From Naegleria gruberi (lineage: Eukaryota): DNA of 64,000 nucleotides. Positions 7,368 through 61,452 of this stretch are shown here, in pieces. Under the pieces are notes generated by a model, which saw nothing but the letters and a program-made list of their open reading frames with translations, did no database searches and was not told the origin of the DNA. Position 1 is the first letter of the stretch. Each line of letters begins with the position of its first letter. Made by a program: the position numbers and the translations under genes. The stretch lies in NCBI GenBank assembly GCA_000004985.1, contig GG738866.1; one strand, written 5' to 3'.

Positions 7368-7715
7368 TAATTACCTCTTGGTTTTTATTGCTTCGTTCAA
7401 AGAATAATGGAGTGCTTTGTAAACCAATAAATTGGTACACGGTGTTGTTGTGATGGTGTGGATGGTGGTAATCTGGTAATGAGTGGTTCCTTTATAATGA
7501 TGATGAATTGTTCAATATGGCACACCTATCAGCTACAAAAGGAAGGTATGAGAGTTTGAAAAGGCGCCAATAAAATTACACAAATCAATATTTACGCTTA
7601 AAGACTGTAGTTGATGTATTGAATCGTGAAAAATCATGCAGTGGTAGGCTCATTATTGTATTTAATGTTAAATACATAAATGAAAATGGTAATAGTATTT
7701 ACAAAATGGAATTTA

Positions 7716-13830: not shown

Positions 13831-15273
13831 ATGTTAAAACGCCCTGCAGCATCAATTCTAAATTTGAAACGAAGCTTTATCTTCAAATCCCTACCAGCAC
13901 TTCACTACTCAATTACGAATTTTAAAATGAACTTGCAAATATCAAATCCCAACTTGAACCAATTCATTTCCGAAGAGGTTCCTTCAAGTTCATGCTTACT
14001 AGCCAGTGATCTTCACACGAAGCAGCATAATATTAATGATAATAATTTTATTATAAATACAACAACAGCAGAGAGTGATGAACTTCCGAATATTCTTTCA
14101 AAATTAAAAAAAATGAAACAATTGATATTTTTGGGTACAAGTTCTGGTGTGCCAACACCTTTGAGAAATGTCAGCAGTTGTGGTTTGCAATTGGATAACG
14201 GAGAAGTTTATTTGATTGATTCCGGAGAAGGAACACAACAGCAATTACAAGTATGTTTATAATTTATTGATCATGATGCTAATTGATTGCTATACCAATA
14301 TATGAAAAGTATTTTGAAATCTGGTAAAATTACAAGAATATTCATTACCCATTTGCATGGTGATCACTGTTATGGATTGCCTGGACTTTTGTGTACATTA
14401 TCCGGAAATAATCCTGTAACTAGAACTATTCTTCCGATTGTTGGACCTGTTGGATTGAAGAATTTCCTTCGTCAAACACTTTCATTGAGTGATGCCCATT
14501 TGAATTTCAGATTGGATATTCATGAAATTGTTCCACCAGAAATGACAGAAGAACAAGTTAAAAAGTATGATGAACAATGCATTGCTCCACTTGCTTGTGA
14601 ATATGATAGTGAAAATTGTTCAGAACCACCAAAGAGTGCAGGATCTTTTATTTATTTGAATAAGGAAACAAATTCTTACCCAGTTTTTGATTTGACTCAA
14701 ACTGATGCTGGATTGACTGTTCAAGCTGCACCAATTTTGCATCGAGTTTTCTGTGTTGGGTATGTGTTTACTGAAAATGACAAACCTGGTAAATTGGACA
14801 TGGAAAAGTGTAAACAACTTGGAGTTCCTAAAGGACCAATGCTTGGAAAAATTAAGAATGGCCAAACAATTACTTTGGATAATGGAACTGTTATCAAACC
14901 AGAAGACGTTGTTGGACCAACTATTAAGGGTAAAAAGTTAGTAATGCTTGGAGATACTCATAATCCTGAAGGAATTGCCACAATTGCTAGGGATTGCACT
15001 CTTTTGGTTCACGAAAGTACCTTGGAGGATAACATGAAAGAACTTGCAATTGATCGTGGACATTCTGTACCGTCAATGGCTGCTAATTTTGCGATCTCAA
15101 TCAATGCAGCTCGTTTAATTCTTACCCATTTCTCTGCTCGTTACGTTGACGAAAACAAACCAGAAAGTGAATTACACGAAAACGAAGTATCAGTCTCTCT
15201 CTTGAGAAAGCAAGCTCAACAAGTATTTGCCAATGTAGAGTTGGCTTCTGATTTTGCTGTCTTTACCATTTAA
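13831..15273 (+). CDS. Short-form RNase Z (ELAC1-type tRNA 3' endonuclease). The exon junction near 14251..14312 does not close in phase.
   Basis: The first part reads [13 protein letters not shown]...[14 protein letters not shown], and the second reads [28 protein letters not shown] (HxHxDH). Aligning to ELAC1 gives [19 protein letters not shown]. The likely start is the ATG at 13831 after an A-rich context, since the ORF track used a TTG start at 13807. Confidence 0.7.
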
Positions 15274-15351
15274 AGAATCTAAAATAAAATTAATTTATTC
15301 ACAAGTTTCATTTCTTTATTTACAATATTTACACTTAGTTGAACTTAATGC

Positions 15352-16048
15352 TTAGAGAGTTTTGGCCAAATACAAACTCCAGAAGAAACCAATAATGTTG
15401 AAGAAGAGTACAACAAGGTCTGGAGGGCTAGAACTCAAAACAACAATAGTAGCAAGTGGCCAAAGCATATAACCTGATTTCAAAGTGGTATAGAAATCAC
15501 GTTTCAAGTTGGCCAAAGCCTTATCTACCACAAAAGCTCTTGATTCAACAAAGGCCAAAACAACAATATAAAAAGCATTGATGAATGGAGCATAAACAGC
15601 TTGATCAATTAAGGTAGGAACCAATGCAAACTTTTCAATGGTTGGGTTGCAAACGATTGGTCTCAACGATTTGATTTCCTTCAAATAATCCATAATATTA
15701 TCCAAAAAACCATACCAAAAGTGAGAACAAGCAGAGCTGCATCCTCCTGTAATTGTAAAATTAATAACTGAATTCCAATCAATTTCTGTCTTTTTCTTGA
15801 TAAACTTTTGGCTTACAATATTAGCAATAAAAGTAATAAGAGCAGCTGTAATTGATTTAACTGCGACTGGTGGGTACTTTTCCATTAACATTTTGTAAAA
15901 ATTCAATATTTTCTTTAATTGATCGGCAAGAGAGTTTGACTTTCTACGAGAAGGATCACCTTTAATAATATTAATTCGGGTTCTCTTTTCTTCTCCTTTA
16001 CCCTCTGATTTAATATCAATAACATCCGTTTGATCGTCTTGACTCATT
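15352..16048 (-). CDS. Mpv17/PMP22-family membrane protein (peroxisomal or mitochondrial inner-membrane type).
   Basis: It is about 230 aa with four predicted TM segments. The match to Mpv17/PMP22 is spread along the protein, including YLKEIKSLRPIV, AVYAPFINAFY, GFFWSLYLA and MLWPLATIVVL. The likely start is MSQDDQ after an A-rich context. Confidence 0.65.
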
Positions 16049-17723: not shown

Positions 17724-18896
17724 ATGATTAAACGGAAGTGTTTGAAGGAGGAGGCTAGCATTGTTTGGAACGAGAGAATAGAAGAAAGAAGATTGCAAAT
17801 ATTGAAAAAACGATTATTGTTGAAGGAACAAATTTTGGAGGAAATTAGAGAAAGTGGGGATGAGGAATTGGAAATGTCGGGAAGTAAAAAGAAAAAGCCT
17901 TTGGAAAAAACTATCACAAAGTTTGTTAAAAAGCATAGACTTTTGCCTTTGATGCAAGAGGAGTATTTACTTCCGAATGATGAATTTACTTGTGAAACTG
18001 ATGACCAAATGCTACGATTAGTATTTGATAAGAATAACTGGAATGAAAATGACTGGTATTTGTTGTATAGGCCACAAGGGAGGAGAGTATTGGTAATATC
18101 TAACAATATGTATACATTTGTTGTGGAAATGAAAGCTAAAGAGAATAATTTATTTATCAAAAAATATCTTTCAGTTTTACAAAGTATTGGAGGAAAACGT
18201 CAGTCTTTTACAATATTAGATGCTATTTTATACGAAACTAATGAAGAGAAGAAGCTTTATATACTTGATCTAATTGCTTGGAATGGGCATTATTTTAGCT
18301 CTAACCCAGCCGAGTTTAGATTTTATTGGCTCACCCAAAAATGGAGGGAGGATCTCAACGACAATATGTACACTAAAGATCAGATAGATATGGAGCTTTG
18401 TGAAAGGATTTCCCTCAACGAATTTTTTGCCAATGTTGACAAATACCATCCAAATTATGAAACAGATGGTCTATATCTTTATCATAAGGAAGGGGATTAC
18501 GTTCATGAGACCTCTCCTTTCTTATTAGTATTTAGAACTTTTAATAATTGCACGTATTTGAAAGAGTTAATGCAATCAGGAATATTCACATTCAAAATGA
18601 TGTATGAAAAGCATGATTCACTGGCAAGTATTAAAATTGGCCAATTAGAAGTTAAGGTTGGAGTTTTACCTCATATTGAAACTAAATCTGTTGTAAAAGT
18701 TAAATTAAGGCTAAAACAAAATGTTATGGTAGATGATGATATTCAATCGGATAATTTTGAAATTATTTCTATTGAAGAGGATCCACTTTTTAAAATAATT
18801 GGAAAAGGAGAAGGGGAAAGCTATTGTGATACTTTTGGAAAAGTGCTTTTTTACTTATCTATTCAAAATTTACAAAATGATGCAATGATACTTTAA
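17724..18896 (+). CDS. Snurportin-1-like m3G-cap snRNP import adaptor.
   Basis: The N-terminus resembles an IBB domain, with basic and acidic residues (RRLQILKKRLLLKEQ). Cap-binding domain blocks are present: FTILDAILYE...LYILDLIAWNGHYF, FRFYWLTQKW and ETDGLYLYHKEGDY. Confidence 0.7.
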   Translation: MIKRKCLKEEASIVWNERIEERRLQILKKRLLLKEQILEEIRESGDEELEMSGSKKKKPLEKTITKFVKKHRLLPLMQEEYLLPNDEFTCETDDQMLRLVFDKNNWNENDWYLLYRPQGRRVLVISNNMYTFVVEMKAKENNLFIKKYLSVLQSIGGKRQSFTILDAILYETNEEKKLYILDLIAWNGHYFSSNPAEFRFYWLTQKWREDLNDNMYTKDQIDMELCERISLNEFFANVDKYHPNYETDGLYLYHKEGDYVHETSPFLLVFRTFNNCTYLKELMQSGIFTFKMMYEKHDSLASIKIGQLEVKVGVLPHIETKSVVKVKLRLKQNVMVDDDIQSDNFEIISIEEDPLFKIIGKGEGESYCDTFGKVLFYLSIQNLQNDAMIL

Positions 18897-20805
18897 GCAA
18901 ACGTTCCTATTTCCATATCCTCACTAACCTCTGACATGTCGATAACATTTGCCATATCATATTGTGAACTCTCTTCTTGAACGGGCACTCCTTCATCAAC
19001 TTGGGAAATATCTCTCGGAATTGGTAGATTAGCAATTTCAGTCAACCACTTTTCATTATAGAGGAAATATTTTTTCCTCTTAATGATATCTGTCCACTGA
19101 CCATCACATTCACAAATTATATCAAGCATCATATCAGATGTTGAGGCAATTTGTTCATTCTCGTCTTGATATAACTCTATAATAACCTTGATAATATGGT
19201 GCTGACTCATTAAACCTTCCCTTGTTGGTCCAAATAAAAGCATCTTGTAGAATGTGTACATGGTTTGTAAAACTATTTCATCATCTTCTTGTTTTTCAAT
19301 AAATATATTACATAAGGTAATTATCATTGGAGAATTGGCTACTAAAGCTGCTGATTCATCATCAGAAATTGCATTACCAAGAAGAATAATTGATTCTAAC
19401 AGAATATCATCATCTTTGTCGCCTTCCACATTGGTTAACGAGTTAACAAGGCTGCTTCTTGTTTTTACCCCCTTTTTCAAGAAATTGAATAAGAAAGCAA
19501 CCAAATCAAATTGTTTGAATAGCTGAGAAAATGAAATAACATTCGAGTTACTCATATTTCCCAACATACCCAGTAATTCTACAACCAATTCATCATTTTC
19601 CGCCTTAGAACAAATACCTAGGATGTCATTTACAAATGGCTTGAATTGAATAGCCAGTTGAGTATGCTGAGAAATATTTCTAATCATCTTGGCTAAGAAA
19701 GGATCTCTTGTCCTCACCAATCTCTCCAATAATCTTGTAAGACCATTATTGTGCAAACACATTTTAACAGCCAATTGTTCTTGAAGTGTAACATTGATGG
19801 CTAAGGCAATTAATTCCTTGCTGACTCTTGTACCAGGATATTCTGCAACAAATTCCAAAAGAATAAATGGGAGAGTATCAGAGGAAATTCTCAATTTTGA
19901 AAATTCTTCATCTTGACTCAATTGATACAACAGCTTTACACAGTATTCAAAGTGGTCTGGGAACCGAAGTAACTCTATGAATTTAGGAACCAAAGGAATG
20001 ACATCCTTTCTTAATTGAGGATCGAAGGTAACATTGACAATCAATCTCATACTTTCATTCAACAAAATAATGTTGTCATATTGGAAAATATCTTCAAATT
20101 TAAACATAAGTCCAGCGTCCAACATTTCCCTTCTGTTTTCTTGGAATATACTAAGTTTCCTCAAAAATGTTACTAGAACACAAAGCAGTTCAGGGTTTTC
20201 ACTATCTAGAGCATTGACCAAGTTTGGAATCAATCCTCTCTTCTTCATTTTGGATTCTATGTCAATGTTCTCTGCTAAATTCAATAAAATTCTAAAGCAA
20301 ACATAAAGAAGATTCTCTTGTTTGGTTATCATACCTCCAACTTTCTTATTTTCATTCTTATTTTCCTTCTTCTTTAACATTTTTTCTCTTCTTTTTTCCT
20401 CATAGGCAATTGCTTCCATCACTACAACTCCAACCTTGAATTTGGTGATTATTTCATGAAATTGAGAAAAATGGGAAAAACTATAAAACACATAGAGTAT
20501 ATTAATCATCAAGTCCATACTCTTTTTTCCTTCCTCCCTCAATGTTCTTCCGAGTAAGTTTAATAATTGTTCTATTTCGTTGTTCCACCTCAACTAATTC
20601 CTAATGTTATTTACTTACCATGAGACACTAGGTACTGTAAATTCACTGGATTTTTCGAGAGCATCATTATATAATAAGATGCCTTGACCTTAGGAGTCAA
20701 ATCACCATGCTCATAAAACATTTCGAGATACCTATCTAGTTGATCGATAGAAATGTATTCCTCTCCCGGGTTGTTGTTTGATGAGGCGCTTTGTACCCTA
20801 CTCAT
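18893..20805 (-). CDS. Kinesin-associated protein 3 (KAP3/KIFAP3), the accessory subunit of heterotrimeric kinesin-II and an armadillo-repeat protein. Exons are 20620..20805 and 18893..20571, with a 48-nt intron (20572..20619).
   Basis: Exon 1 ends ...PVNLQYLVSHG. Splicing GTAAGT...GAAATAG (phase 1) gives ...G-E-QLLNLLGRTLREEGKKSMDLMINILYVFYSFSHFSQFH, matching human KIFAP3 ...[41 protein letters not shown]. The block AKMIRNISQH is also conserved. Confidence 0.8.
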
Positions 20806-24000: not shown

Positions 24001-25685
24001 GAGGTGCAAGATATTTAGAAATTTTCCTGGATGATAAGCCTATTTTCAAAGGCGAAATTAAACCTTCCCCAGGCTATTTGTCATCAGTTGAAGCTGGTTC
24101 AGAGAGTATTCTCTTCACCACTGAAACTGAGATTCTTGAAAGAATCGATAGATATGATCAAGAAGTTTATGCCAACCTTCCAACAGAACCTGAAGTTATC
24201 AATAATTGTGAAAGACCAAAAACAGCCAGTAAGGATGTAATGGATACAAGCTTTAATCCTATTGAACATTTTTCTAATATGGATCCATCCGAGAGACCAC
24301 TCACTAGCGCCCTTCCGCCTAAAGAGCAACATTTCAATAACAATAATGGTCTTGTAAGAGGTCAAAAAATAAGAATTATTTTAGAAAGCTCATGGGGTGA
24401 TCTGTTCTACATAGGGCTAACCGGTATTGAGGTTCTTGGGAAGGATGAAAAACTTATTAAGGTAACAACTGAGCAGTTGAGCGCAAAGCCTAGAGATATG
24501 AACGAAGTCGCTGGCCACTCTGGAGACTACAGAACCTTGGATAAATTAGTGGATGGTCTCAACGTTACCACTGATGACAGGCACATGTGGATGGTACCAG
24601 TTACTTTATTTAAAGAACGTCCTTATATAGAAATCGATTTAAGAAAGGAAACTGAAATTTCTGGACTCAGATTTTTCAATTATAATAAGAACCTTGAAGA
24701 TACTTTTAGAGGAGTTAAGAAAATTTCAATCTTATTAGATGACAAACCATTGCTAGACAATGAAGAGAGCTGTTTTATCCTTAAAAAAGCTCCTGGTAAC
24801 ACTAACTTTGATTTTGGTCATACTATTTTGTTCTCAGAAACTGGAACAACCTCTAACAGAAACTCTTTAGAAAATATGACGTCAAAATCAAAAGAAAACT
24901 CGGCTAGAGGTAGCTCCCTCAGAAACAGCTCTTTACTAAATGAAGGTATTCAGCAAGCTATCCTCAAGGCACAATCAATGCAAAATCTCCAACCGCCTCG
25001 TCAAGACTACCAAACGGCATTGCTTCCATGTGCCTATACTTTCAAGTTCCATTTGATTTCTTCTCTTGGCGATCCTTACTATGTTGGATTAAATGGAATC
25101 GAGCTATTTGATGCCAGACACGAGAGAATTCCTCTCACAGTTGCCAATATACAAGCAAGCCCATACAGTGTCTCGAAAGATGATGTCAGAACTCCTGACA
25201 AACTTCTTGACGGTGTCAATAACACTTGGAATGATAGCCATATGTGGTTGACTTTAATAGAACCTGGTCAAGATAATTATTTGTACATTACATTTGAGGA
25301 ACCTATTGCTGTGTCTTTTATTAAGATTTGGAATTATAGTAAAACTCCCAGCAGAGGTGTAGAAGAGTTAATTGTTTATGCGGACGATGTAATTATTTAT
25401 AAGGGATTTTTAAGAATGGCCCCTGCAATTAACGATCTTAATATTGACCTTAAGAAAGATTTTGCTCAATCCATACTATTTACAAATGACCCAACCATTT
25501 GCCAGCGAGAAAAGAAAAGAATTTATTCGAGAACTCTTGACGATCAAGATGTAAAGTATTACAATGAAAAACAATTGGTTAAACCAGCAACTCAACAACA
25601 ATTACCTCCACAATATCATGTTAAACCCCCTTCACGAGAATACTACCCTTCAACAAGACCTACAACATCCGTTGTCAATAAATAA
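21096..25685 (+). CDS. KATNIP (KIAA0556)-like protein with four DUF4457-type repeats. Exons are 21096..21263, 21306..22433 and 22455..25685, with introns of 42 nt (21264..21305) and 21 nt (22434..22454).
   Basis: Four units of the form S.WGD..Y.GL.GIE..D..G......MW....P......Y.......I...R.WNYNK are present (CIRILSTWGHSSNVGLTEIELYSF..., SWGDPHYLGLSGIEIFDKNG..., SWGDLFYIGLTGIEVLGKDE..., SLGDPYYVGLNGIELFDARH...). The 21-nt intron (GTAAGTAACAATTGTTATTAG) is needed to join ...WNFNKSIN to VISDSKKESVKGVREVEIL, and it contains an in-frame TAG. Confidence 0.7.
22434..22454 (+). other. Ultra-short 21-nt spliceosomal intron in the KATNIP-like gene.
   Basis: It reads GTAAGT...TTAG and its length is a multiple of three with an in-frame stop. 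Removing it aligns the first DUF4457 unit with the other three. Confidence 0.55.
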
Positions 25686-25724
25686 ACCTTTTTAATTTAC
25701 AATATTTACAATGTGTACAAATAA

Positions 25725-26627
25725 TTAATCTGCTTCATCATCAGAAAGTTCACTATCTCTGGATAAATCCATTTGATCATTTTCCTCTCTCACTAAGTGG
25801 CAATTCATAACATCAAGAATTGCAGGGAAATCAACTTTTTCTTGGAGTCTCTTTTGAGAAAACATTAAAATCTTTAAAAGAAGTTGAAGTTTTGGTGTTG
25901 CTTCCAACTGTTGACTTTTCAATATTGCTGAATTCAATTCACTTGCTGTTTTCTGCCTTTGACCATTTCCTAAAAGGCTCGAATATGGGCAAGACTTTTG
26001 ATCCTCAAATGCCAATAAGCTCATTACTTTTTCGACCTCCTGTAAAAACTCTGAATTATCCTCTACAAGAGGTACTAATTCTTCCTGGGCGAATCTTGTT
26101 TACAAATTGTTACAATCCATTACAATGATATTCTTACCTTAATGCATCATCTATTTTTCCACTCCTTATTAATTCAATCAATTGTTGTTGTTTCAGTTTG
26201 AAGAATAACTCTGGAGATGAATCGAGAATTTGTGGGTTCAGCATATTGACTTCTCCAATTGCTCCGATAATATCTCCCTCAATAACCTTCTTCCTAATTG
26301 TTACTCGTTCTCCAATTCCATTTGTATTAGTTTCATTTGTATCTTTGTTAACAAAGTATTGCATTATTATGCTTTCATTGTCAATTATACCTACCATCAT
26401 TCTTCAAGCCTGATTCTTGTTGAAAAACTTGAGCAGCCTCTTTATAACCCTCCACAACCAAATAATTCAAAACAAGAGAATCCAAATCACTGAAATTATA
26501 TTGATCACACTCTTAAAATAAATCATTAAAATTACCTTCTATTGATTTTAATTTGCGCCAACTTATCTTCCCACTCATTCCGATCAATAATTGATTTTTG
26601 AAAGGCTCTAACTGCTGGTTTAGACAT
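25725..26627 (-). CDS. GID8/TWA1 homologue, a LisH-CTLH-CRA subunit of the GID/CTLH E3 complex. Exons are 26536..26627, 26395..26489, 26138..26339 and 25725..26084.
   Basis: The protein rebuilds as MSKPAVRAFQKSIIDRNEWEDKLAQIKINR|SDLDSLVLNYLVVEGYKEAAQVFQQESGLKNDG|DTNE...FFKLKQQQLIELIRSGKIDDALR|EELVPLVEDNSEFLQEVEKVMSLLAFEDQ...QRQKTASELNSAIL...TPKLQLLLKILMFSQKRL. It is collinear with human GID8. Introns 1 and 2 are in phase, and intron 3 (26085..26137) is off by one nucleotide. Confidence 0.75.
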
Positions 26628-27018: not shown

Positions 27019-29871
27019 ATGAGCAACAATTCATCATCTAAAAATTTCCAACAAAACACAAAATTGTTGAATAAATCTCAGCACTTGATAAAGAGTTTTC
27101 ACATTTCTCCTTTCATTTCGCTAGTATATAAGAATGATATTGGAGATAATATACAACGTGTAGCTTTTTCTAATGTATCACAACAATTCTATATTTGTTG
27201 TGCTGATAGTAAAATTAATATAGTTGAATATGCAACAGGAGAAAGATTATATACTATCGAAGCCGATTCAAATGTTACTTGTCTTTCATTAAGTTCGGAT
27301 GATAGATTCCTTGCTGTTAGTTGTAAGAGTGGACAAGTTACAATTTATAGTATGAAGCAACAAAAGGCTTTGAAAACTTTCCGAGTTGGTGTTTCTTCAC
27401 CTGTTATTCAATTAGCCTACTCTCCTGATGATGCCTTTTTAGCTATGGCTCATGGTGATGGTAGTATTGATATTTATTATACTCCTACAACTCAAGATGA
27501 ATCAACAGGACAACCTGCTTTACTTAAATTATTATTTACAATTAAGAAACATCATCAAGGACAAATACATTTAATGAAATGGATTGATAATTTATGGTTA
27601 GCATCAAGTGGTTTGGATGGAGCTAAAGTAATGCAAATAGGAAATGAAGAAGATGAAAGTCGTCCATATAAAATTATTGCAAGTATTCATGATAATAGAA
27701 ATGATATTAGAGATGTTACTTTATTGAAGGAACATGATACTGAAGATAATACTAAACCAATTTATTTAATGACTGCTGGACATGGTTCTTTATATCAATT
27801 TAAATGGAATGAAAAGAATTCTACATTCAATTTATCTAACACAATTCCTATCAAACATTATTTCTCAAGTATGATTGAAATAACTTCTACTGAAAATGAT
27901 TCATTTACTCTTATTGCCAGTACTCCTGTTAAGAAAAAGAATAATTTGGTGAGGATAACAGTTAAGAAACCACAAGTTTCTGATAAAAAGAAGAAGAAGG
28001 ACGAAGATGATGACGATGATGCTGTTAAAATTGAATATATTCCTGAAAAATCACTTGTTGGTCTTTCGCAATTATTCAAATTATCTGATTCTGAAATTTT
28101 TGCTATTACCATTGATTCAAATTTTGCAATTTTCAAGAGAAAGGAGAATGAAGCAAATGGTGATGAATCTGCTAAAGCTAAACTCAAGAAGAAACTTTCA
28201 AAGAAGGAAGATGTTACAGAAGTTGCCTCTAAAGGAGTTTTGTTTGAAAAAGTTGGTCAAAGATTGGGATTCAACGATGATGTCTTGGATATGTCATTGT
28301 TCTCATCTAGAAATATGTTGGCCGTCGCTACAAATTCTGAGAATGTTACCTTGTTGAATTTGAGTGATGCCAATCAAGATCCAATTGAAGTTTCTGGACA
28401 CTCTGAAATGATCTTGTCTCTTGATCGCTCAAAGGATAAGGATCAACGTTATTTGGTCACTGGTTCTAAGGATAAATCTATTAGAGTTTGGGATGTCTCT
28501 AAATACGGAAATACACAAGGAGAAGAACATGTCACCCCTGTTTCTGTTGGTACAAGCCACTTGACCGGTGTTACTGCTGTCTGTGTTTCTAACCACAAAC
28601 GAAAGCTCAAAGATTCTAAGGAAGAAGATTTCTTCATTTACTCTGCATCAGATGATGGTGTTCTTAAAAAGTGGAAATTATCTGATTGTAGCTTGTTAGG
28701 TACAAACTCTGAAAGCCACAAAAAGACTGTCAGTGAAATTTCAGTTTCACCTGATGATTCAATGATTGCCACTGCTAGTGCTGATAAGACTGCTAAAGTT
28801 TTTGATACTTCTGATTTGTCTAAGGTTCTCTTTGAATTCCCTCACAAGAAAGCAGTGTGGTGTGTCAAGTTCTCACCTGTTGATAAAGTTATTGCTACTG
28901 GTTGCAGTGATAACATGATTAGAATTTGGTCTTTAAAGACTGGTAACTGTGTTAAAGTTTTGGAAGGTCATGATCAATCAATTCTCAAGATGCAATTCTT
29001 GAATAATGGTGCTCAATTGGTTTCTGCAGATGCCAATGGTGTTGTAAGATTGTGGGTTATTAAGACTGGTGAATGCATTAAAGTTTTTGGTGATGCTCAC
29101 ACTGACAGAATTTGGGCTGTTTCTGTAGATCAAAAGACCAATCAATTGATTACTGGTGGTGAAGATTCCAGAATTAATATTTGGCATGATAACACTGAAG
29201 AAATTAAGGAAGAACAAAGAGAAGATGTAAATTTGTCAGTTATTCAAGATCAAGAATTGAGGAATTTGGAAAGACAAGGTAAAATGAAGGATGTCCTTAG
29301 AAAAGCCATTGAATTGGATAGACCAAAGCTCACCTATACAACCATTGAAAAACTTGTCAAGACTGATGAGAAGACTGTCTTGGAAGGTTTGATTATGGAA
29401 TTACCAAAGATTCACCTTATGCACCTATTCCAATACTGTATTGATTGGAACTCTAACTCAAAGTTTTGTCAAATTGCTCAACTTGTTTTAAAGATAATGT
29501 TTGACCTTGTAGAACCATCTTTCATTGATATTGCCTATGAAAAATCAGTAGATGCTTTGTCATTGTACAGTCAGAGACACTTAAAGAGAATAACTTATTT
29601 AGAACAAAAGAGTTTCATTTTAGAACATGCATTGAATCAAATGAATGCCTTAACGCCAATCGAAAATTCATCCAATGTTGAAACTTTGAAGAGTATGCCA
29701 TCAAAGAAGAGAAAGGAAATTGATACATCAAAGGTTGTTCAAGAACCAATTCAGTTCAAGACTGTTGAAGTTGTTGATGAAGATGTAGAATTTTCAGACC
29801 AAGAAGGAGAATTTGATGAAGATGGTGAAGAGGAAACATTCGAACCATCTACAAAAAAGCAAAAAAATTAA
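27019..29871 (+). CDS. UTP13/TBL3-type WD40 protein, a U3 snoRNP and SSU-processome component.
   Basis: It is about 950 aa with multiple WD40 repeats (GHSEMILSLD, LVTGSKDKSIRVWD, IATGCSDNMIRIWS, LVSADANGVVRLWV, LITGGEDSRINIWH). A C-terminal Utp13-type helical region follows. The start uses an A-rich context at 27019. Confidence 0.7.
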   Translation: MSNNSSSKNFQQNTKLLNKSQHLIKSFHISPFISLVYKNDIGDNIQRVAFSNVSQQFYICCADSKINIVEYATGERLYTIEADSNVTCLSLSSDDRFLAVSCKSGQVTIYSMKQQKALKTFRVGVSSPVIQLAYSPDDAFLAMAHGDGSIDIYYTPTTQDESTGQPALLKLLFTIKKHHQGQIHLMKWIDNLWLASSGLDGAKVMQIGNEEDESRPYKIIASIHDNRNDIRDVTLLKEHDTEDNTKPIYLMTAGHGSLYQFKWNEKNSTFNLSNTIPIKHYFSSMIEITSTENDSFTLIASTPVKKKNNLVRITVKKPQVSDKKKKKDEDDDDDAVKIEYIPEKSLVGLSQLFKLSDSEIFAITIDSNFAIFKRKENEANGDESAKAKLKKKLSKKEDVTEVASKGVLFEKVGQRLGFNDDVLDMSLFSSRNMLAVATNSENVTLLNLSDANQDPIEVSGHSEMILSLDRSKDKDQRYLVTGSKDKSIRVWDVSKYGNTQGEEHVTPVSVGTSHLTGVTAVCVSNHKRKLKDSKEEDFFIYSASDDGVLKKWKLSDCSLLGTNSESHKKTVSEISVSPDDSMIATASADKTAKVFDTSDLSKVLFEFPHKKAVWCVKFSPVDKVIATGCSDNMIRIWSLKTGNCVKVLEGHDQSILKMQFLNNGAQLVSADANGVVRLWVIKTGECIKVFGDAHTDRIWAVSVDQKTNQLITGGEDSRINIWHDNTEEIKEEQREDVNLSVIQDQELRNLERQGKMKDVLRKAIELDRPKLTYTTIEKLVKTDEKTVLEGLIMELPKIHLMHLFQYCIDWNSNSKFCQIAQLVLKIMFDLVEPSFIDIAYEKSVDALSLYSQRHLKRITYLEQKSFILEHALNQMNALTPIENSSNVETLKSMPSKKRKEIDTSKVVQEPIQFKTVEVVDEDVEFSDQEGEFDEDGEEETFEPSTKKQKN

Positions 29872-29885
29872 AATGTTAAAATTCT

Positions 29886-30817
29886 TTAATTAGTTGTGGT
29901 TGGTGTCTTTTCAGCTTCATCATCAATTGAGTTGAAGGTATTTGATGTTTCAGAATTATGAACCAAGAAAGTACGAGCATTACGGAAAGTACTACCATCC
30001 TTGATGGAAAGCTTATTGTGCTTATATTGAACAATAACACCTTCTCCAAAGTGCAAAATCCACTTGAAACGGTCACAAATGTGAATTCTATCAGCATGAT
30101 TGTTTGAATTCTTGTTCCAGACTTGTAAAACGTCTTCCTTAGTTCTCAAACTCAAAACACAACCAACAACATTACCAGTTTCTATTTAAGGAAGGGTGAT
30201 GAATTAAAATGAATATGAGTAACAATACATACCAAATTGTTCACAAATAGTAGAGAAAACGAGTTGTTCCCACAATCTATCACAGAAAGTTGATGTTTGA
30301 CCATTTTCACCCTTTCTAATTTTGACCATCCAACATCCACCTAATTATTATTAAATTATTATTATTAAATTTTTAATAAACGTAATGCGGAAATGTATAC
30401 AAACCTTGAGGGAAACTATTTAAAATTAATAATTAAATATAATTAAATACATACGATTCCCACATTGGTACTACTTCATGTCTGAACAATGAAATATTAC
30501 TATTCTTTGGCAATTTGCTTGGCTTTTGGAGGTAAGAATAAACTTTGCAGAATTCATCAATTGATGAAACGGTGGCAAGTTTAGTCAAACAATCACGGTA
30601 TTGACTTCCATCCTTTTCCTTTTCATGATGTTCTTGATGATGATGTCCTTCTTTATCTACTTTAGTATTAGCATACCAAAAAGTCCATTTAGTTTCAAGT
30701 GGAAATCCTTTAGCTTTTAATTGTTCATCGCTATCATATGATTGAGACTTGGTCTTTTTAGCTGGTTGAGGAACTTCAAAAACAGTCTCGGAAACAACTT
30801 CTTGTTGAGATGTAGAC
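29886..30817 (-). CDS. Translation initiation factor eIF4E. Exons are 30465..30817, a possible 11-nt micro-exon at 30405..30415, 30233..30340 and 29886..30181.
   Basis: Conserved blocks are KGFPLETKWTFWYAN (cap-binding Trp residues), HEVVPMWE, GGCWMVKIRKG, RLWEQLVFSTICEQF and GNVVGCVLSLRTKEDVLQVWNKN...DRIHICDRF. Introns start GTATGT, and the last is 51 nt (30182..30232). A His-rich insert (KEGHHHQEHHEKEKDG) is present. Confidence 0.75.
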
Positions 30818-35242: not shown

Positions 35243-36037
35243 ATGGCCAGAAATCAAGAAAAGGCCCAATCCATGCTGAATCGTTGGACCAATTTTAGGA
35301 TTGGTAACGAATTCACAGAGAAGAAAAGGCCTCCTCATCCATCATTTTCTAAAACTTTAAACGCTAGTGAACATTGGCGAAGAAATGTGTTGAAGGAAAT
35401 TGCTGAAAAGGTGACGATCATACAAAATGCTTCTCTAGGTGAACATCGTATCCGAGATTTAAACGATGAAATTAATAGATTAATACAAGAAAAAGCCGAT
35501 TGGGAAAAAAGAATTATTGAATTAGGAGGAATTGATTATAGTAAACAAGATATTAAATTATATGATGATAATGGACAAATAATAGAAATTGGTGAAGGAT
35601 ATAAATATTTTGGAGCGGCGCGAGAACTACCTGGTATAAAAGAATTATTATTTGAAAAACAAAAATCATCAGAAAAACAACAGAAAAACAAATTTAATGA
35701 ACTTTACAAAGGAATTGATTCTTTTTATTATGGATACAATGAAGATGAGGATGAACCTGATTTGCTTGCTGCAGAAGAAAAAGCAGAAGAGGAGCTTAGA
35801 AAGGAGTTTTATCAACGTTATTTAAAAGCTGTGGAAATTAAAAAGAAAAAGATGGGAGGTGGTGGAATTCAAAATGTCACAAGACAAACTATGGAAGCAA
35901 AATCATTTGGAGTGTTAAATGAAGAAGAAAAGAAAACCTTTGTATATAATGTACAACTACCAACACAGGATGTTATTGAACAAGCACTGTTAGAAAAGAA
36001 GAAGCAAGATTTATTGAAAGAACTAGGAGAATTTTAA
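35243..36037 (+). CDS. Pre-mRNA splicing factor ISY1.
   Basis: The N-terminus MARNQEKAQSMLNRW... is ISY1-type. The protein is about 260 aa and charged, with a coiled-coil character. Confidence 0.7.
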   Translation: MARNQEKAQSMLNRWTNFRIGNEFTEKKRPPHPSFSKTLNASEHWRRNVLKEIAEKVTIIQNASLGEHRIRDLNDEINRLIQEKADWEKRIIELGGIDYSKQDIKLYDDNGQIIEIGEGYKYFGAARELPGIKELLFEKQKSSEKQQKNKFNELYKGIDSFYYGYNEDEDEPDLLAAEEKAEEELRKEFYQRYLKAVEIKKKKMGGGGIQNVTRQTMEAKSFGVLNEEEKKTFVYNVQLPTQDVIEQALLEKKKQDLLKELGEF

Positions 36038-36041
36038 TTTA

Positions 36042-39000
36042 TTAAAAAGCTAAACTTGTGTTAGAATTATTACTACTAGTATTACTTGCTGCAATACCAT
36101 CTTGTGGTTCTGAATAGTTTGGTAAAATCGGTACTGCATGGGATTGTCTGATCATTTCCTCATTAAGACGTTGTAGAGCTGATGTATTAACATGCTCTGG
36201 GAATGAGAATGAATCCAAAACAGATGATCCCAATAAATGATTACTTGGACTTGCCAATGAAGAATCTGTTTGATTCATAGAACCTATTGCTGGAGGTGTT
36301 CCAGTCGATGTGGAATGGAAGCTCATACTTCTTTGGTAGGGAGGTGATCTTCCAGCTGCTCTCAAATCTCTCATACTATGAGAGGATGAAAGTGGTGGAG
36401 TTCTGCCAACAGAAATACCAAGATCAGTTTGTTCTGTCAAACATTCACTAGAATCATCAATATCAGAAAGGCACTTGTTTTCCATTGATTCTCTAAAGTG
36501 CATAGGGAATGCTTCCTCTCTTGGCTTGAATTTTGAGGTATCAGTCATATCTTTAACTCCAGGTAACACACCTACAGGTTCTTTCAATACTTTATCCCAA
36601 TCCACTCCACTCATAAATGGGTGTTCCTTTGCTGTTACTTCATTTAGACGAGTTTCTGGATTTGGATCTAAGAGTCTATCTACAAAATTCAACACTCCAC
36701 TAGCTACAATCTCTGGAGGTAAGAGTCTTTCATCAACCCAATTAATTCTTCTTGATAGAATATTATCAAAAATATATTCAGGAGTATCATCATTAAATGG
36801 TGGACAACCAAACAATAGCTCAAATACAATACATCCCAAACTCCAATAATCGACAGCTTCTGTATGTGGCATACCCAATAAAAGTTCAGGAGCCAAATAG
36901 TCAGGAGTACCTCTAACTTGAATTTCAGATTCTTCTATTTCATCTTGTCTTGCAAGAGCATCCATTGATTGTTTGCTCAATGTTTGTTCATCTTCTCTGT
37001 CAAGAACACCAATTTCACTCAAACCAAAGTCTGTTAATTTCAAGTGACCACACTTATCAATAAGCATGTTATCTGGTTTCAAATCTCTGTGTACAATCTT
37101 ATTGTGATGTAAATCAGATAAAGCTAAAATACTTTCGGCGGCAATATGTCTAACTACATCTATATCAAATGCTTCTCCATTTTCTAACTTTTCTGCTAAC
37201 AAACAATCTAAACTACCACCTGGACAATATTCCATAACAATATAGAGATATCTTTTACCAGCAAAGGAGTAGTAAAAATTAACAATAAATGGAGATTGCT
37301 CATTATTTTCCATTAGTACTTTCATGATAGTTCTTTCAGCCAATAGATCTGGCTCATTTGTGAGAGTTTTACCAACGTTCTTGTGATTATAGAGATATTG
37401 TTTCTTGATTACCTTAATAGCATAAATGTCTTTAGTTGACTTCTTTCTTGCCAAGTAAACCCTACCATAAGCACCTCTTGAAATTGGTTTAATGATCTCA
37501 AAATCAGAAATCTTAATTTTTGGCATTTTCTTAATATTTTGCTTCTCTTCATGAAGTAATGCAGTACATTTTCCTTCAATAACATCCATTAATCTTTTGG
37601 CGTATACAGAAACTCTATAGTTATTACCAGAGAAATTATCATCCTTATGTTCCTCTATTACTGTGGAAAGTACTCCAATAACTTCTTGCAATTGACTTCT
37701 ATCGTTACTCTTCTCTGCCTTCTTGGCTAATTTGAAAAGTTTGTAGAGTGAACTTGATTTTTTCTTCTTGATTGATTTTTCAATACCTCTACGAATGTTT
37801 TTCAATTTTTCAAAGGCACTAACATTTTGCATTTCAATCTTGTGTTTAACAGCACAAGTAGCACTGTGTTCTGCTAATTTAGTACTTGGTACCAATTCCT
37901 CACAAATTCTACATAAAATTTCAATAACAGTTTCTTCCTTCTTTGGCTTTGGTTGTTTCTTCAACTCTGTTGGTGTATTATTTGTAGACTTGGATTTAGT
38001 ACCAGTGGTATTGACTGACAAAAGGTTAGGATCCTCCTTCTTGGAAAATAGTGTTTTGAACTTGGAAAAGAAAGAATCTGAGAATTTTTTCTTTTCTGAG
38101 GTTGGTGTTACAGGAGTGTGAGGAATATCTTTGTTTGGTGTGGTTGCGTGTGCAGTAGCTGAAGAAGTTGATCTAGGAGAGCTTGCAGGTGAGTCATAAT
38201 CACTAGATTCCCCAGTATGTTCAGGTTTAGATGAAGAACTAACACTCGATCTTCTTGGAGAAACGCTCGTTGAACTGGTATCCTCATCGTCTGTTGAAGG
38301 TTTAAGGAAGGGTAATTTTGGATTAGGTTTTAAATTATCTTGTGATTCTGAACTGTCATAGTCAAATCTATCTCTAGATGATTCTGGTTCAACAACAGCC
38401 ATTGACCTGAATCTTTGTCTTTGCCTAACTTCTTCCTTCTCTTTTTCTCTTATTTCTTCTTCAGCTAAATGCTTCTTATACAATTCCAAAACTCTGTTAA
38501 CTCTACTATAAATAAATATGAGCTTTTTGGCTTGTTTCATAATTTCGAATTGTCTTCCAAGAGCCTGTACATCTATATTTGAGCCAGCAGTTGCAATTAA
38601 AGAACCAGGTGTTGTTGGGGTAGTTGAGAGCACATGCATTGAGGGAGAGTTACTCTGATGAGTCAAATTGGTATAGTTACCGACACAAGTTTGTAAAATG
38701 GTTTGTAATTCTCTCATAAAATCTGTTTTACAAAGATCATCAACTGTTTTAGAGCCTAAAATCTCCCTTGCTATGGCCTCAACTTGTTGTAACTCTGGAC
38801 ATGAAAATTCAACTTCCTTTAATTCCCATAAAAATGTTTTCAAATCTCTATTCATCTTATGTTGGATTACATTAGCTCGTTCTTTCAAAACATTTCCAAC
38901 TTTGTCAAATGATGAATTCAAATCTACACTCAAAGCTCTGTCTCTCGTATTTGCTATAAATAATCTCGGTGAATTTCTATCATTAATTGAAAAAGATGCA

Positions 39001-40299
39001 CTTGCTGCAGCAAACACTGATGCTTGCTTTAGAAGTGGTGATTTTTTCGCTAATTGTGGACTTTCCTCATCCAATTCATTGAGATCATCACCAAAACAGT
39101 CATCCTTTCTCATATCCCATTTTGGATCCACATTATGTCTCACAAATGATGAAGCAAGAAGTCTATTTGAATGAAAAACACTTTGTGCTCTCTTCAGTGG
39201 AGGTGGTTGAAAACCAGCATGAACACTTTGTCCTCTATTTCTATTATATCCACCACTATAAGAACTGTTATTTTGTGTAGCACTAATCGGTGAGAAATTT
39301 CCAGTGTATGATGAACTGATCTGTGGTTGAAATACTCCAGAGTAATTACTACTTCCAGAACTTCCAGAACTGTTTCCTTCATTATTGTGAGTCATACTTA
39401 AATGTGATATTGTAATAGCACTTGTTGATTGATATGGATTCACTGGTGTTGTTGGTGTGGGTGATTGATTTTGTGACATCTTTGGTAATTGAACCAAAGG
39501 AAAGTTGTATCCAAGTAAATTATTTAAAGAAGTGCTGTGTCCTCTATTTCTCGAAGGTAAACTTTTAATACTATTCAATCAATTAGTGTTAAACAAATTA
39601 ATTAAATACATACGCGAAATCAGAATAATTATGATATAATACAGTTGGTGATATTGGTGGTGATTGTTGTGGTGGTACTGCTCGTTTAGCTACTTGTGAC
39701 TTATTTTGTGGAGTGGCATCATTGGTGGTCGTGTTTTGTTGTTGTGTTTGTGGTTGAGTATGGGTAGTATCAATTTGGGGAAGTGATTTCGCCTTCTTAT
39801 CTAAAGGCTTTTGTTGATTATTTTCGTTTTTAGGTGATTTTGGTGTTTCTTGTTGCTGCTGACTTGTTGTGTTGTTGTTATTATTATTATTATTATTAAC
39901 ATTGTTTGATGGTAAGAGTTGTATATGTGTTGGAGACATTTCACATTCCTCCGATATACTTGATAAGAGTCCTGATTCATCAATGGAATTTAATGATGAG
40001 AAGAAGGAAACTCTCTTTGATGAAGATCTCCACAAACGAGTGTTGTTATTATTATTGGTTGAAGTTGTTGTTTCTGGTTGAAGATTGGATGATGACATTG
40101 ATGAAGAAGGAGAGGATATCCTATTATTATTTGGGGTAGTAGTAGTCATGGAAGAAGAGGAGGAACAAGCCTGCTGTTGTTGTTGTTGTTGTCTATTATT
40201 CTCTTCTCGGGTGGTGGTAGTGGTGTTTGCAGAATTTGATGAAGTAGTAGAAGAAGGAGAGGAGGCTTGTTGTTGGTATGAAGGAGGTTGCTGTTGCAT
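36042..40299 (-). CDS. MAST-family AGC Ser/Thr kinase. Exons are 39614..40299 and 36042..39570, with a 43-nt intron (39571..39613). Exon 1 is rich in Asn and Gln.
   Basis: The kinase domain reads FEIIKPISRGAYGRVYLARKK...HRDLKPDNMLI...DFGLSEIGVL, followed by a roughly 30-aa insert and then GTPDYLAPE and INWVDE, all MAST-like. An upstream DUF1908-like region is present. The intron reads GTATGT...GAATAG (phase 2) and joins ...YSDFA to IKSLPSRNRG. Confidence 0.75.
39878..39898. repeat. (TTA)n microsatellite, which encodes a poly-Asn run on the minus strand inside MAST exon 1.
   Basis: The repeat ttattattattattattatta is flanked by (tgt)n. Confidence 0.6.
40174..40191. repeat. (TTG)n microsatellite, which encodes a poly-Gln run as (CAA)n on the minus strand inside MAST exon 1.
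   Basis: The repeat is tgttgttgttgttgttgt. Confidence 0.6.
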
Positions 40300-46787: not shown

Positions 46788-46815
46788 ATAATTTATTAAA
46801 GAAATTTCAATTATT

Positions 46816-61237: not shown

Positions 61238-61308
61238 AGGGAGATAGTTCAGTGGTAGAACATGGGATTGTGGTTCCTAAGATCAGGGTTCGATTCCCTG
61301 TCTTCCTA
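61238..61308 (+). tRNA. tRNA-His(GUG): tRNA-His (anticodon GTG).
   Basis: The molecule folds as a cloverleaf. The acceptor stem is AGGGAGA / TCTTCCT, with one G-T wobble pair. The D-stem is GTTC/GAAC and the anticodon stem TGGGA/TCCTA, with anticodon loop TTGTGGT. The variable loop is 4 nt, the T-arm is CAGGG-TTCGATT-CCCTG, and the discriminator is A. No G-1 or CCA is encoded. A T5 run follows 3 nt downstream. Confidence 0.8.
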
Positions 61309-61452
61309 CACCTTTTTGATAATTTTAATAATTTTTATTGCAAACATAATTCCAAAAACTTTGAATTTTGAGTTGGTGCTTAGGTGGCGTAACATTAAGA
61401 AAATCAAGAGATGGGATCATTTATTGAAACGAAATGAATATTTTTACCAAAT

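What the first reader, a model, noticed from the sequence alone, without database searches (positions are those of the whole stretch)
18893..18896. Convergent genes whose stop codons overlap on a palindrome (snurportin/KAP3, and ECI/WD40 at 41916..41921)
Snurportin on the plus strand ends TAA at 18894-18896. KAP3 on the minus strand ends TAA at 18893-18895, so both use one TTAA. The peroxisomal ECI on the plus strand and the WD40 gene on the minus strand share TTATAA at 41916-41921. Each gene reads Leu-stop from the same six bases. ISY1 and the MAST kinase gene are 4 nt apart (36037 and 36042). No room is left for separate 3' UTRs, so the convergent transcripts must overlap tail-to-tail with antisense 3' ends, or polyadenylate essentially at the stop codon. 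This is extreme 3' compaction for a free-living eukaryote. It may mean RNAi or antisense coupling between the neighbours.
Basis: seen in the sequence. Interest (0 to 1): 0.55.

Follow-up and report, generated by a model that had tools for sequence, protein, structure and literature searches.

The report
Tail-to-tail overlapping genes in Naegleria
In this stretch of the amoeba Naegleria gruberi, neighbouring genes that point at each other are packed so tightly that two pairs share their stop codons; the overlaps are real, but they are the extreme end of a known genome-wide compaction with very short mRNA tails, and nothing shows a special regulatory device.

Summary
The window is Naegleria gruberi NEG-M. 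Snurportin(+)/KAP3(-) share TTAA at 18893-18896. ECI(+)/WD40(-) share TTATAA at 41916-41921. ISY1(+)/Greatwall-like kinase(-) are 4 nt apart. All six stops are supported by C-terminal homology; ECI ends in the peroxisomal signal -SKL. The palindromes carry no extra information: two convergent stop codons can only overlap by 4 or 6 nt, and both arrangements are palindrome-like by construction. These pairs are not isolated. All seven convergent junctions in the window have spacers of -6 to 78 nt (median 14), against 98-361 nt for the few tandem or divergent spacers I could measure. Published direct RNA sequencing gives N. gruberi a median 3' UTR of 39 nt, an AAUAAA signal, and stop codons that double as poly(A) signals. 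So antisense overlap of the mRNA tails is expected for every convergent pair here. One point is new: the four genes of the two stop-sharing pairs are four of only five genes (of 25) without a canonical hexamer within 35 nt of the stop. They must use weaker or more distant signals inside the partner's coding sequence. RNAi coupling is untested, and conservation of the pairings is mixed. No transcript data could be consulted. Modest interest.

The parts
17724..18896 (+). Snurportin-like gene: a single 390-aa ORF with its TAA at 18894-18896. It is not present in public protein sets.
   Evidence: Pfam SPN1_m3Gcap_bd 4.2e-22. There are 359 family hits but no self or near-identical hit. The C-terminus aligns with fragment P0166.
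18893..20805 (-). KAP3 (kinesin-associated protein 3, NAEGRDRAFT_79669). The last exon is 18893-20593 and an N-terminal exon ORF lies at 20611-20805. The TAA is at 18893-18895.
   Evidence: Pfam KAP 2.6e-107. It is 100% identical to P0001. The C-terminus is conserved in N. lovaniensis and in P0004.
18893..18896 (.). TTAA, where the two TAA stops share their middle two bases (4-nt CDS overlap). It constrains only the third base of each gene's last sense codon.
18850..18875 (-). Candidate 3'-end signals for KAP3, lying antisense inside the last snurportin codons: TTGTAAA (18875->18869), AATAGA (18863->18858) and AGTAAA (18855->18850). There is no canonical AATAAA or ATTAAA until +348.
35243..36037 (+). 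ISY1 splicing factor (EFC44814, 264 aa), with its TAA at 36035-36037.
   Evidence: Pfam Isy1 1.5e-77 over the full profile. The exact sequence is in the public set. The N. lovaniensis orthologue has the same length.
36042..39578 (-). AGC kinase resembling Greatwall/MASTL. The coordinates give the stop-to-stop ORF; the true start lies inside it. The TAA is at 36042-36044.
   Evidence: Pfam Pkinase 1e-55. Best solved relative is Greatwall at 8.6e-65. It is 66% identical to the N. lovaniensis orthologue over residues 4-1145.
36038..36046 (.). TTTATTAAA, a compact two-way poly(A) signal. It reads AATAAA on the minus strand, overlapping the kinase stop (dual use), and ATTAAA on the plus strand, 4 nt after the ISY1 stop.
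   Evidence: The same 9-mer occurs at 46792-46800 between SRP68 and the OCRL-like phosphatase.
40964..41921 (+). Enoyl-CoA isomerase (ECI, NAEGRDRAFT_33361, 289 aa). Its exons are 40964-41436, 41484-41491 (an 8-nt micro-exon) and 41533-41921. It ends S-K-L-TAA.
   Evidence: Pfam ECH_1. The model I built is identical to EFC44815. -SKL is conserved in N. lovaniensis.
41916..42989 (-). WD40-repeat gene (NAEGRDRAFT_67321, 357 aa), with its TAA at 41916-41918.
   Evidence: Pfam WD40. The exact sequence is in the public set. The C-terminus is conserved in P0132 and P0133.
41916..41921 (.). TTATAA. Each gene's stop codon is the antisense of the other gene's final Leu codon (6-nt CDS overlap).
   Evidence: The junction is identical in the independent metagenome contig L007.
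41963..41968 (+). First canonical AATAAA downstream of the ECI stop (+42). It lies antisense to WD40 codons L-Y-C. A TATAAA variant overlaps the stop at 41917-41922.
41828..41885 (-). Candidate 3'-end signals for WD40, lying antisense inside the ECI C-terminal codons: two TTGTAAA (41885->41879 and 41876->41870) and ATTAAA (41833->41828, +83).
29867..29890 (.). For comparison, the Utp13(+)/eIF4E(-) junction. The spacer is 14 nt and an ATTAAA overlaps the stop on both strands.
25677..25727 (.). For comparison, the DUF4457(+)/CTLH(-) junction. The spacer is 39 nt, with AATAAA over the + stop and TTGTAAATTAAA on the minus strand.
46785..46818 (.). For comparison, the SRP68(+)/OCRL-like 5-phosphatase(-) junction. 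The spacer is 28 nt and contains TTTATTAAA.
15271..15354 (.). For comparison, the RNase Z-like(+)/Mpv17-PMP22(-) junction. The spacer is 78 nt and there are AATAAA signals on both strands.

Best explanation
These are genuine tail-to-tail overlaps between functional protein-coding genes of Naegleria gruberi. They are the limit case of a general property of this genome.

Spacers between convergent genes hold no promoters, so they have shrunk to a few tens of nucleotides or less. 3' UTRs are very short (published median 39 nt), and poly(A) signals often sit on or next to the stop codon. Shrinkage stops where coding constraint begins. The only overlaps that cost almost nothing are 4 nt (stops interleaved as TTAA) and 6 nt (each stop antisense to the partner's last Leu or Ser codon). 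The two overlapping pairs occupy exactly these two states.

Each gene's cleavage and polyadenylation site must therefore lie inside the partner's last codons, on the opposite strand. The mature mRNAs would then be complementary over tens of nucleotides, possibly more than 100.

Shown here: the genes, their stops, the spacers and the positions of the signal hexamers.

Inferred: the poly(A) sites, the transcript overlap, and the view that the overlap is a by-product of compaction rather than a selected regulatory link.
For: Organism and gene models.

Stops validated by homology.

Spacers: all seven convergent spacers are -6 to 78 nt, median 14. The three tandem spacers measured are 98-317 nt and the two divergent ones 186-361 nt.

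Overlap geometry: only 4-nt and 6-nt overlaps are possible.

AATAAA behaves as a real signal in this window. It occurs 6 times in sense and 69 times in antisense across 45.4 kb of coding ORFs. Of 25 stops, 20 have AATAAA or ATTAAA starting at -2 to +35, against 9% expected (P = 3e-17).

Published direct RNA sequencing of N. gruberi (PMC11529991) reports a median 3' UTR of 39 nt, AAUAAA as the top hexamer, UGUA upstream, and 11-13% of stops overlapping AAUAAA with 22-nt UTRs.

At ISY1/kinase both signals lie within TAATTTATTAAA.

The four genes of the two stop-sharing pairs are four of the five genes without a nearby canonical hexamer (Fisher P = 0.0004). This is what is expected if the partner's coding sequence has displaced the usual signal.

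Spacer length is labile between species: 4 vs 78 nt for ISY1/kinase, and -4 vs 34 nt for snurportin/KAP3.
Against: No transcript data for these loci could be examined, so the poly(A) sites and the overlap are predictions.

Snurportin has no AATAAA-like hexamer, even allowing one mismatch, from -40 to +284 of its stop. Its 3' end is unexplained. It has no public gene model, so its expression is unproven.

The snurportin/KAP3 adjacency persists in a relative whose KAP3 is only 62% identical. That could reflect selection on the pair rather than mere difficulty of breaking a tiny spacer.

The sample is one 64-kb window with 7 junctions, and the genome-wide distribution was not measured.
Confidence: 0.72

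Rival explanations
1. The overlap is a selected regulatory link. Complementary 3' ends form double-stranded RNA, or the converging polymerases collide, so that one neighbour damps the other through RNAi or transcriptional interference. For example, flagellar KAP3 is induced at differentiation and could damp housekeeping snurportin.
For: Transcript overlap is unavoidable for the two CDS-overlapping pairs. Naegleria species encode candidate Dicer and Argonaute homologues (PMC13315211). Convergent 3' overlaps do affect expression in budding yeast (PMC3900390 and PMC6993858, listed). The snurportin/KAP3 adjacency is kept in a distant relative.
Against: No small-RNA or expression data were examined. 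The degree of overlap is not conserved: 78 nt in N. lovaniensis for ISY1/kinase, and 34 nt in the relative for snurportin/KAP3. In N. lovaniensis KAP3 faces a different gene. All seven convergent pairs in the window are predicted to overlap at the RNA level, so the flagged pairs are not special in kind. The partners have no obvious functional relation.
Confidence: 0.12
2. One member of a pair is silent or a recent pseudogene, so no real conflict exists. The obvious candidate is snurportin, which has no public gene model and no recognisable poly(A) signal.
For: The ORF is absent from public protein sets. No N. lovaniensis or N. fowleri orthologue was retrieved for snurportin or for WD40. There is no AATAAA-like hexamer for 284 nt past the snurportin stop.
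Against: The snurportin ORF is intact over 390 codons in a 33% GC genome. It has a significant cap-binding domain match. Its C-terminal region is conserved in other snurportins, and a homologue sits in the same position opposite KAP3 in another heterolobosean. The absence of a model is more simply explained by gene callers that disallow overlapping models (my inference). WD40, ECI, KAP3 and ISY1 all have public models.
Confidence: 0.08
3. The mRNAs are cleaved and polyadenylated at or within a few nucleotides of the stop, so that little or no antisense overlap arises.
For: N. gruberi does use stop codons that are part of the poly(A) signal (PMC11529991). TATAAA overlaps the ECI stop and AATAAA overlaps the kinase stop.
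Against: Even dual-use stops give a median 22-nt UTR in the published data. With spacers of -6, -4 and 4 nt this still places the cleavage site inside the partner's coding sequence. Snurportin, KAP3 and WD40 have no hexamer at the stop.
Confidence: 0.05
4. The overlaps are artefacts, caused by a wrong stop (a missed terminal intron) or by an assembly error.
For: Only that introns are common here and can be very small; the ECI gene contains an 8-nt micro-exon.
Against: All six C-termini match homologues. The -SKL ending must be C-terminal to work as a peroxisomal signal (established knowledge of PTS1). An independent metagenome contig reproduces the ECI/WD40 junction.
Confidence: 0.03

Closest known systems
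Ultrashort 3' UTRs and dual-use stop/poly(A) signals of Naegleria gruberi (direct RNA sequencing, Genome Res 2024, PMC11529991)
   Same: Same organism and the same signals. In this window AATAAA or ATTAAA lies on or just after most stops, and UGUA lies upstream. The kinase, DUF4457, Utp13 and eIF4E stops are dual-use.
   Different: In the passages I read, that paper does not discuss convergent neighbours or CDS overlap (one search found 'convergent' once, in another sense). The four genes of the stop-sharing pairs lack the canonical nearby hexamer.
Overlapping transcription in compacted eukaryotic genomes: microsporidia and nucleomorphs (Williams et al. 2005 PNAS, recalled from memory; its title phrases were found in the full text of papers listed, which I did not open)
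   Same: Intergenic spacers are too short to hold full transcript ends, so transcripts run into neighbours. The overlap is viewed as a by-product of compaction.
   Different: Those are reduced parasite or endosymbiont genomes. Naegleria is a free-living amoeba with a large gene set and ordinary promoter-bearing spacers. Here only the convergent spacers have collapsed.
Convergent gene pairs with overlapping 3' UTRs in Saccharomyces cerevisiae (PMC3900390, PMC6993858)
   Same: Tail-to-tail protein-coding pairs whose mRNAs are complementary at the 3' end. A short spacer predicts duplex formation.
   Different: From their abstracts, the yeast overlaps involve UTRs across short intergenic spacers, not shared stop codons. 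Regulatory effects were measured there and not here.
RNAi-dependent control at convergent genes in Schizosaccharomyces pombe (Gullerova and Proudfoot 2008, recalled from memory and not checked)
   Different: No small RNA, chromatin or cohesin data exist for Naegleria in what I could search.
Short fixed-length gene overlaps in prokaryotes, e.g. the -4 and -1 nt overlaps of co-directional genes (PMC10666635)
   Same: Only certain overlap lengths are allowed by start and stop codon geometry, which gives discrete classes.
   Different: Those are co-directional overlaps that serve translational coupling. Here the genes converge and are translated from separate mRNAs.

Membership tests
Tail-to-tail (convergent) overlapping protein-coding gene pair | Both members are bona fide protein-coding genes on opposite strands | tested here: met
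   Pfam matches for all six genes. Five have identical public models. Snurportin is supported by a domain match and by a syntenic homologue.
Tail-to-tail (convergent) overlapping protein-coding gene pair | The coding sequences, stop codons included, share nucleotides | tested here: met
   4 nt are shared at 18893-18896 and 6 nt at 41916-41921. ISY1/kinase does not overlap at the CDS level; it has a 4-nt spacer.
Tail-to-tail (convergent) overlapping protein-coding gene pair | Both members are transcribed, with complementary 3' ends | not testable with these tools
   No N. gruberi transcript contigs could be retrieved. The supplements of the direct-RNA paper are not held.
Dual-use stop codon / poly(A) signal (N. 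gruberi type) | AAUAAA (or AUUAAA) overlaps the stop codon | tested here: inconclusive
   Met for the kinase (AATAAA 36043->36038). ECI has only the variant TATAAA. Not met for snurportin, KAP3, WD40 or ISY1; ISY1 has ATTAAA at +4.
Dual-use stop codon / poly(A) signal (N. gruberi type) | The resulting 3' UTR is about 22 nt | not testable with these tools
   This needs mapped poly(A) sites.
RNAi- or antisense-coupled convergent pair (S. pombe / yeast type) | Small RNAs, or measurable mutual repression, arise from the overlap | not testable with these tools
   No small-RNA or expression data are available. Only candidate Dicer and Argonaute homologues are reported for the genus.
RNAi- or antisense-coupled convergent pair (S. 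pombe / yeast type) | The pairing and the overlap are conserved in relatives, as expected if selected | tested here: inconclusive
   ISY1/kinase is kept in N. lovaniensis with a 78-nt spacer. Snurportin/KAP3 is kept in metagenome relative L008 with a 34-nt spacer but replaced by ECH/KAP3 in N. lovaniensis. ECI/WD40 was not found elsewhere.

The most novel reading that the evidence does not exclude
Genes whose stop codons overlap a convergent neighbour form a distinct class in Naegleria that escapes the AAUAAA-near-stop rule. Their 3' ends would be specified by UGUAAA-type or distant signals written antisense into the partner's C-terminal codons, which would constrain those codons on both strands. 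The obligatory double-stranded 3' ends would feed the Dicer/Argonaute system, or cause polymerase collision, and so link expression of the neighbours. An example would be KAP3, induced at flagellate differentiation, against snurportin.
Probability: 0.1. Interest if true: 0.55.

Novelty: new member of a known kind. Interest (0 to 1): 0.27.

Why it matters
The finding shows where compaction stops in a free-living eukaryote: exactly at the two overlap lengths, 4 and 6 nt, that cost almost no coding freedom.

It also gives a concrete and cheap test. Genes in such pairs should have atypically long or non-canonical 3' ends, and obligatory antisense overlap with the neighbour.

There is a practical point for annotation. 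A clearly real snurportin gene is missing from the public N. gruberi protein set, probably because it overlaps KAP3. Gene callers that forbid overlaps may be systematically losing genes in this and similar genomes.

None of this changes current understanding of gene expression unless the overlaps prove to be regulatory.

Tried and rejected
1. My first guess was a heterotrich ciliate with 15-nt introns, because some ORFs are separated by about 17 nt. One search rejected this: the KAP3 ORF is 100% identical to a Naegleria gruberi protein.

2. I tried exact look-ups of window proteins to fetch N. gruberi contigs or transcript assemblies. Nothing was on record, so no direct transcript evidence was obtained. 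The supplements of the direct-RNA paper are not held.

3. I considered that both stop-sharing junctions arose when an ancestral KAP3/ECI junction, as seen in N. lovaniensis, was split in N. gruberi. I rejected the polarity of this idea. An outgroup-like metagenome contig (L008) has snurportin opposite KAP3, as N. gruberi does. The N. lovaniensis arrangement is therefore at least as likely to be the derived one.

4. I considered TTAA as a piggyBac-type target-site scar. I did not pursue it, because the second junction (TTATAA) contains no TTAA and no transposon remnants were seen.

5. The in-frame stop between ORFs 21306-22454 and 22455-25685 (DUF4457) looked at first like read-through or a 21-nt intron. 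Inspection and the start of homology at residue 8 of the second ORF fit an ordinary intron of about 42 nt.

6. Literature searches for a description of convergent overlaps in Naegleria found none.

7. The gene downstream of the WD40 homologue in L006 is not an ECI.
Full report
ORGANISM AND GENES

The window is 30-36% GC over most of its length and is read with the standard genetic code. The long minus-strand ORF at 18893-20593 is 100% identical to Naegleria gruberi NAEGRDRAFT_79669. It is 75% identical to the N. lovaniensis orthologue and 62% to that of Willaertia magna. Exact look-ups place ISY1 (EFC44814), the WD40 protein (EFC44907), a proteasome subunit, SRP68, the ECI (EFC44815) and an OCRL-like phosphatase in the public N. 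gruberi NEG-M protein set, all on one 469-kb scaffold.

The kinase's closest solved relative is Greatwall/MASTL at 8.6e-65, so 'MAST kinase' is roughly right.

THE OBSERVATION

All three junctions are exactly as described.
- TTAA at 18893-18896 holds the plus-strand TAA of snurportin (18894-18896) and the minus-strand TAA of KAP3 (18893-18895).
- TTATAA at 41916-41921 reads Leu-stop on both strands.
- The ISY1 and kinase stops are separated by 4 nt (36038-36041).

I checked that each stop is the real C-terminus.
- KAP3 ends ...DMEIGTFA, against ...DLEVGTLH in N. lovaniensis.
- ECI ends -SKL, the canonical peroxisomal PTS1, in both species. PTS1 works only at the extreme C-terminus (established knowledge).
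- WD40 ends within one residue of two homologues.
- ISY1 is 264 aa in both species and covers the whole Pfam profile.
- The kinase tails are of similar length.
- The snurportin end lies within four residues of a homologous fragment.

An independent metagenome contig, 99% identical and with introns present (so genomic DNA from another strain), carries the same TTATAA junction.

IS IT MORE THAN CHANCE?

Two separate answers apply.

First, the palindromes add nothing. Enumeration shows that two convergent stop codons can overlap only by 4 nt (TTAA, CTAA, TTAG, CTAG) or by 6 nt (TTA, CTA or TCA followed by a stop). Overlaps of 1, 2, 3 or 5 nt are impossible. With TAA on both sides the sequence must be TTAA or TTATAA.

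The 4-nt state constrains only the third base of each last sense codon. The 6-nt state requires each protein to end in Leu or Ser, and ECI already does because of -SKL.

Second, the closeness is not peculiar to these pairs. After identifying the remaining genes, I count seven convergent junctions in the window, with spacers of 78, -4, 39, 14, 4, -6 and 28 nt (median 14). The spacers I could measure between exactly known models are 98-317 nt for three tandem pairs and 186-361 nt for two divergent pairs. The flagged pairs are therefore the low end of a continuous distribution of collapsed convergent spacers.

HOW THE 3' ENDS ARE PROBABLY MADE

A 2024 direct-RNA study of N. gruberi (PMC11529991) reports:
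- a median 3' UTR of 39 nt;
- AAUAAA as the main signal, with UGUA upstream and U-rich sequence downstream;
- about 1200 AAUAAA in all coding sequence;
- 11-13% of stops overlapping AAUAAA, with a median 22-nt UTR.

The window behaves accordingly. AATAAA occurs 6 times in sense but 69 times in antisense across 45.4 kb of coding ORFs. Of 25 confident stops, 20 have AATAAA or ATTAAA starting between -2 and +35, against 9% expected (P = 3e-17). TTGTAAA is also enriched within 70 nt downstream of stops, with 7 observed against 0.8 expected.

At ISY1/kinase the two signals are fused in TTTATTAAA (36038-36046). It reads AATAAA on the minus strand, overlapping the kinase stop, and ATTAAA on the plus strand, 4 nt after the ISY1 stop. 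With cleavage about 15-20 nt downstream, the two mRNAs should overlap by roughly 45 nt. The same 9-mer sits between SRP68 and the OCRL-like gene. At Utp13/eIF4E both stops are dual-use ATTAAA. By this reasoning all seven convergent pairs should give overlapping transcripts. This is inference, not observation.

WHAT IS PARTICULAR TO THE TWO STOP-SHARING PAIRS

The four genes of these pairs are four of the only five genes without a canonical hexamer near the stop (Fisher P = 0.0004).
- KAP3 has TTGTAAA at +18, then AATAGA at +30 and AGTAAA at +38.
- WD40 has two TTGTAAA at +31 and +40, and ATTAAA only at +83.
- ECI has TATAAA over the stop, and AATAAA at +42, antisense to WD40 codons L-Y-C.
- Snurportin has nothing resembling AATAAA, even with one mismatch, until +285.

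This is what one expects if the partner's coding sequence has displaced the normal signal. It predicts longer or non-canonical 3' ends for these genes. The snurportin 3' end remains unexplained.

CONSERVATION

- In N. lovaniensis the ISY1/kinase pair is kept, but with a 78-nt spacer. There KAP3 faces the ECH/ECI gene across 74 nt.
- In an uncultured heterolobosean contig (L008; KAP3 62% identical), KAP3 faces a snurportin homologue across 34 nt. The snurportin/KAP3 adjacency is therefore older than N. gruberi, but the overlap itself is not conserved.
- In N. lovaniensis and N. fowleri the gene after the proteasome subunit is a guanylate cyclase, not the WD40 gene. No WD40 orthologue from those species was retrieved. 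The WD40 homologue in contig L006 does not face an ECI.
- Annotated convergent spacers in the N. lovaniensis locus are 25, 87, 74 and 78 nt, looser than in N. gruberi. The sample is small.

This pattern fits drift in spacer length under compaction better than a conserved regulatory overlap, but it does not exclude the latter.

INTERPRETATION

Best reading (confidence about 0.7): these are real tail-to-tail overlaps that mark the floor of convergent-spacer shrinkage in a genome with very short 3' UTRs. The consequence is mRNA tails that are complementary over tens of nucleotides or more.

The RNAi or antisense-coupling idea is possible in principle. Candidate Dicer and Argonaute homologues are reported for the genus (PMC13315211), and yeast precedents exist (PMC3900390, PMC6993858). 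It has no support here.

The pseudogene, zero-UTR and artefact alternatives are each unlikely, for the reasons given under rival explanations.

COMPARISON WITH WHAT IS KNOWN, AND VERDICT

The short UTRs and dual-use stops of N. gruberi are published. Transcript overlap caused by compaction is known from microsporidia and nucleomorphs, and convergent 3' overlaps from yeasts. I found no description of stop-codon-sharing convergent genes in Naegleria, although the ECI/WD40 overlap is implicit in the public annotation.

I therefore class this as a new member of a known kind, of modest interest (0.27). The parts worth following up are:
- the discrete -4 and -6 classes;
- the loss of the canonical poly(A) signal in such genes;
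- the unannotated snurportin gene.

LIMITS

- Only one 64-kb window and seven junctions were examined.
- No transcript, small-RNA or genome-wide annotation data could be consulted.
- The poly(A) sites given are predictions from hexamer positions.

Noticed in passing
window 17724-18896 (+): The 390-aa snurportin ORF has a clear m3G-cap-binding domain but is absent from public protein collections. There is no exact match and no close match (best 36% identity). It appears unannotated in N. gruberi v1.0, possibly because it overlaps the KAP3 model by 4 nt (my inference).
   Followed up: partly
window 41484-41491 (+): The ECI gene needs an 8-nt micro-exon (TCAATTTG) flanked by introns of 47 and 41 nt, both starting GTAAGTTGT. 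The public model EFC44815 uses exactly this structure. The N. lovaniensis orthologue is intronless.
   Followed up: yes
window, all confident coding ORFs (45.4 kb): AATAAA is almost excluded from the sense strand of coding sequence (6 occurrences) but not from the antisense strand (69). ATTAAA shows no such bias (38 vs 33).
   Followed up: yes
window 36038-36046 and 46792-46800: The same 9-mer, TTTATTAAA, sits in two different convergent spacers. It reads as AATAAA on the minus strand and ATTAAA on the plus strand, a minimal two-way poly(A) signal.
   Followed up: partly
window 7698-7704, 15319-15333, 18869-18875, 25696-25711, 41870-41885 (all minus strand): TTGTAAA recurs 12-40 nt downstream of stops (7 observed against 0.8 expected). 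It is often fused to the hexamer, as in TGTAAATAAA or TGTAAATTAAA. In this window it follows minus-strand genes only. TGTAAATAAA also lies in the CTLH/DUF4457 spacer of metagenome contig L008 (positions about 1835-1850).
   Followed up: partly
L001 10001-12821 vs window 18893-20805 and 40964-41921; L008 7000-9178: Gene order is reshuffled among relatives. N. lovaniensis has KAP3 facing ECH. N. gruberi and an uncultured heterolobosean have KAP3 facing snurportin. In N. gruberi ECI lies 21 kb away, facing a WD40 gene for which no N. lovaniensis or N. fowleri orthologue was retrieved.
   Followed up: partly
L007 1-611 (ENA ERZ929261, run ERR1078381): An environmental metagenome contains a 611-nt contig 99% identical to window 41393-42003 (5 differences). 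This indicates a wild N. gruberi-like strain in that sample.
   Followed up: no
window 18893-20805 (-): The public KAP3 model (P0001, 541 aa) starts at MDLMINIL. It lacks the N-terminal region that is conserved in N. lovaniensis and encoded here by ORF 20611-20805 plus the start of the long ORF. The public model looks 5'-truncated.
   Followed up: partly
window 61238-61309 (+): A tRNA-His (GTG) gene lies between minus-strand protein-coding genes. It is the only Rfam or ARAGORN hit in the window.
   Followed up: no
window 22435-22476 (+): The DUF4457 gene is split into two ORFs that lie in the same frame and are separated only by a stop codon. The stop lies in a short intron (GTAAGT...; about 42 nt judging from where homology starts, though a 21-nt GT..AG is also present). 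The exact boundaries were not resolved.
   Followed up: partly
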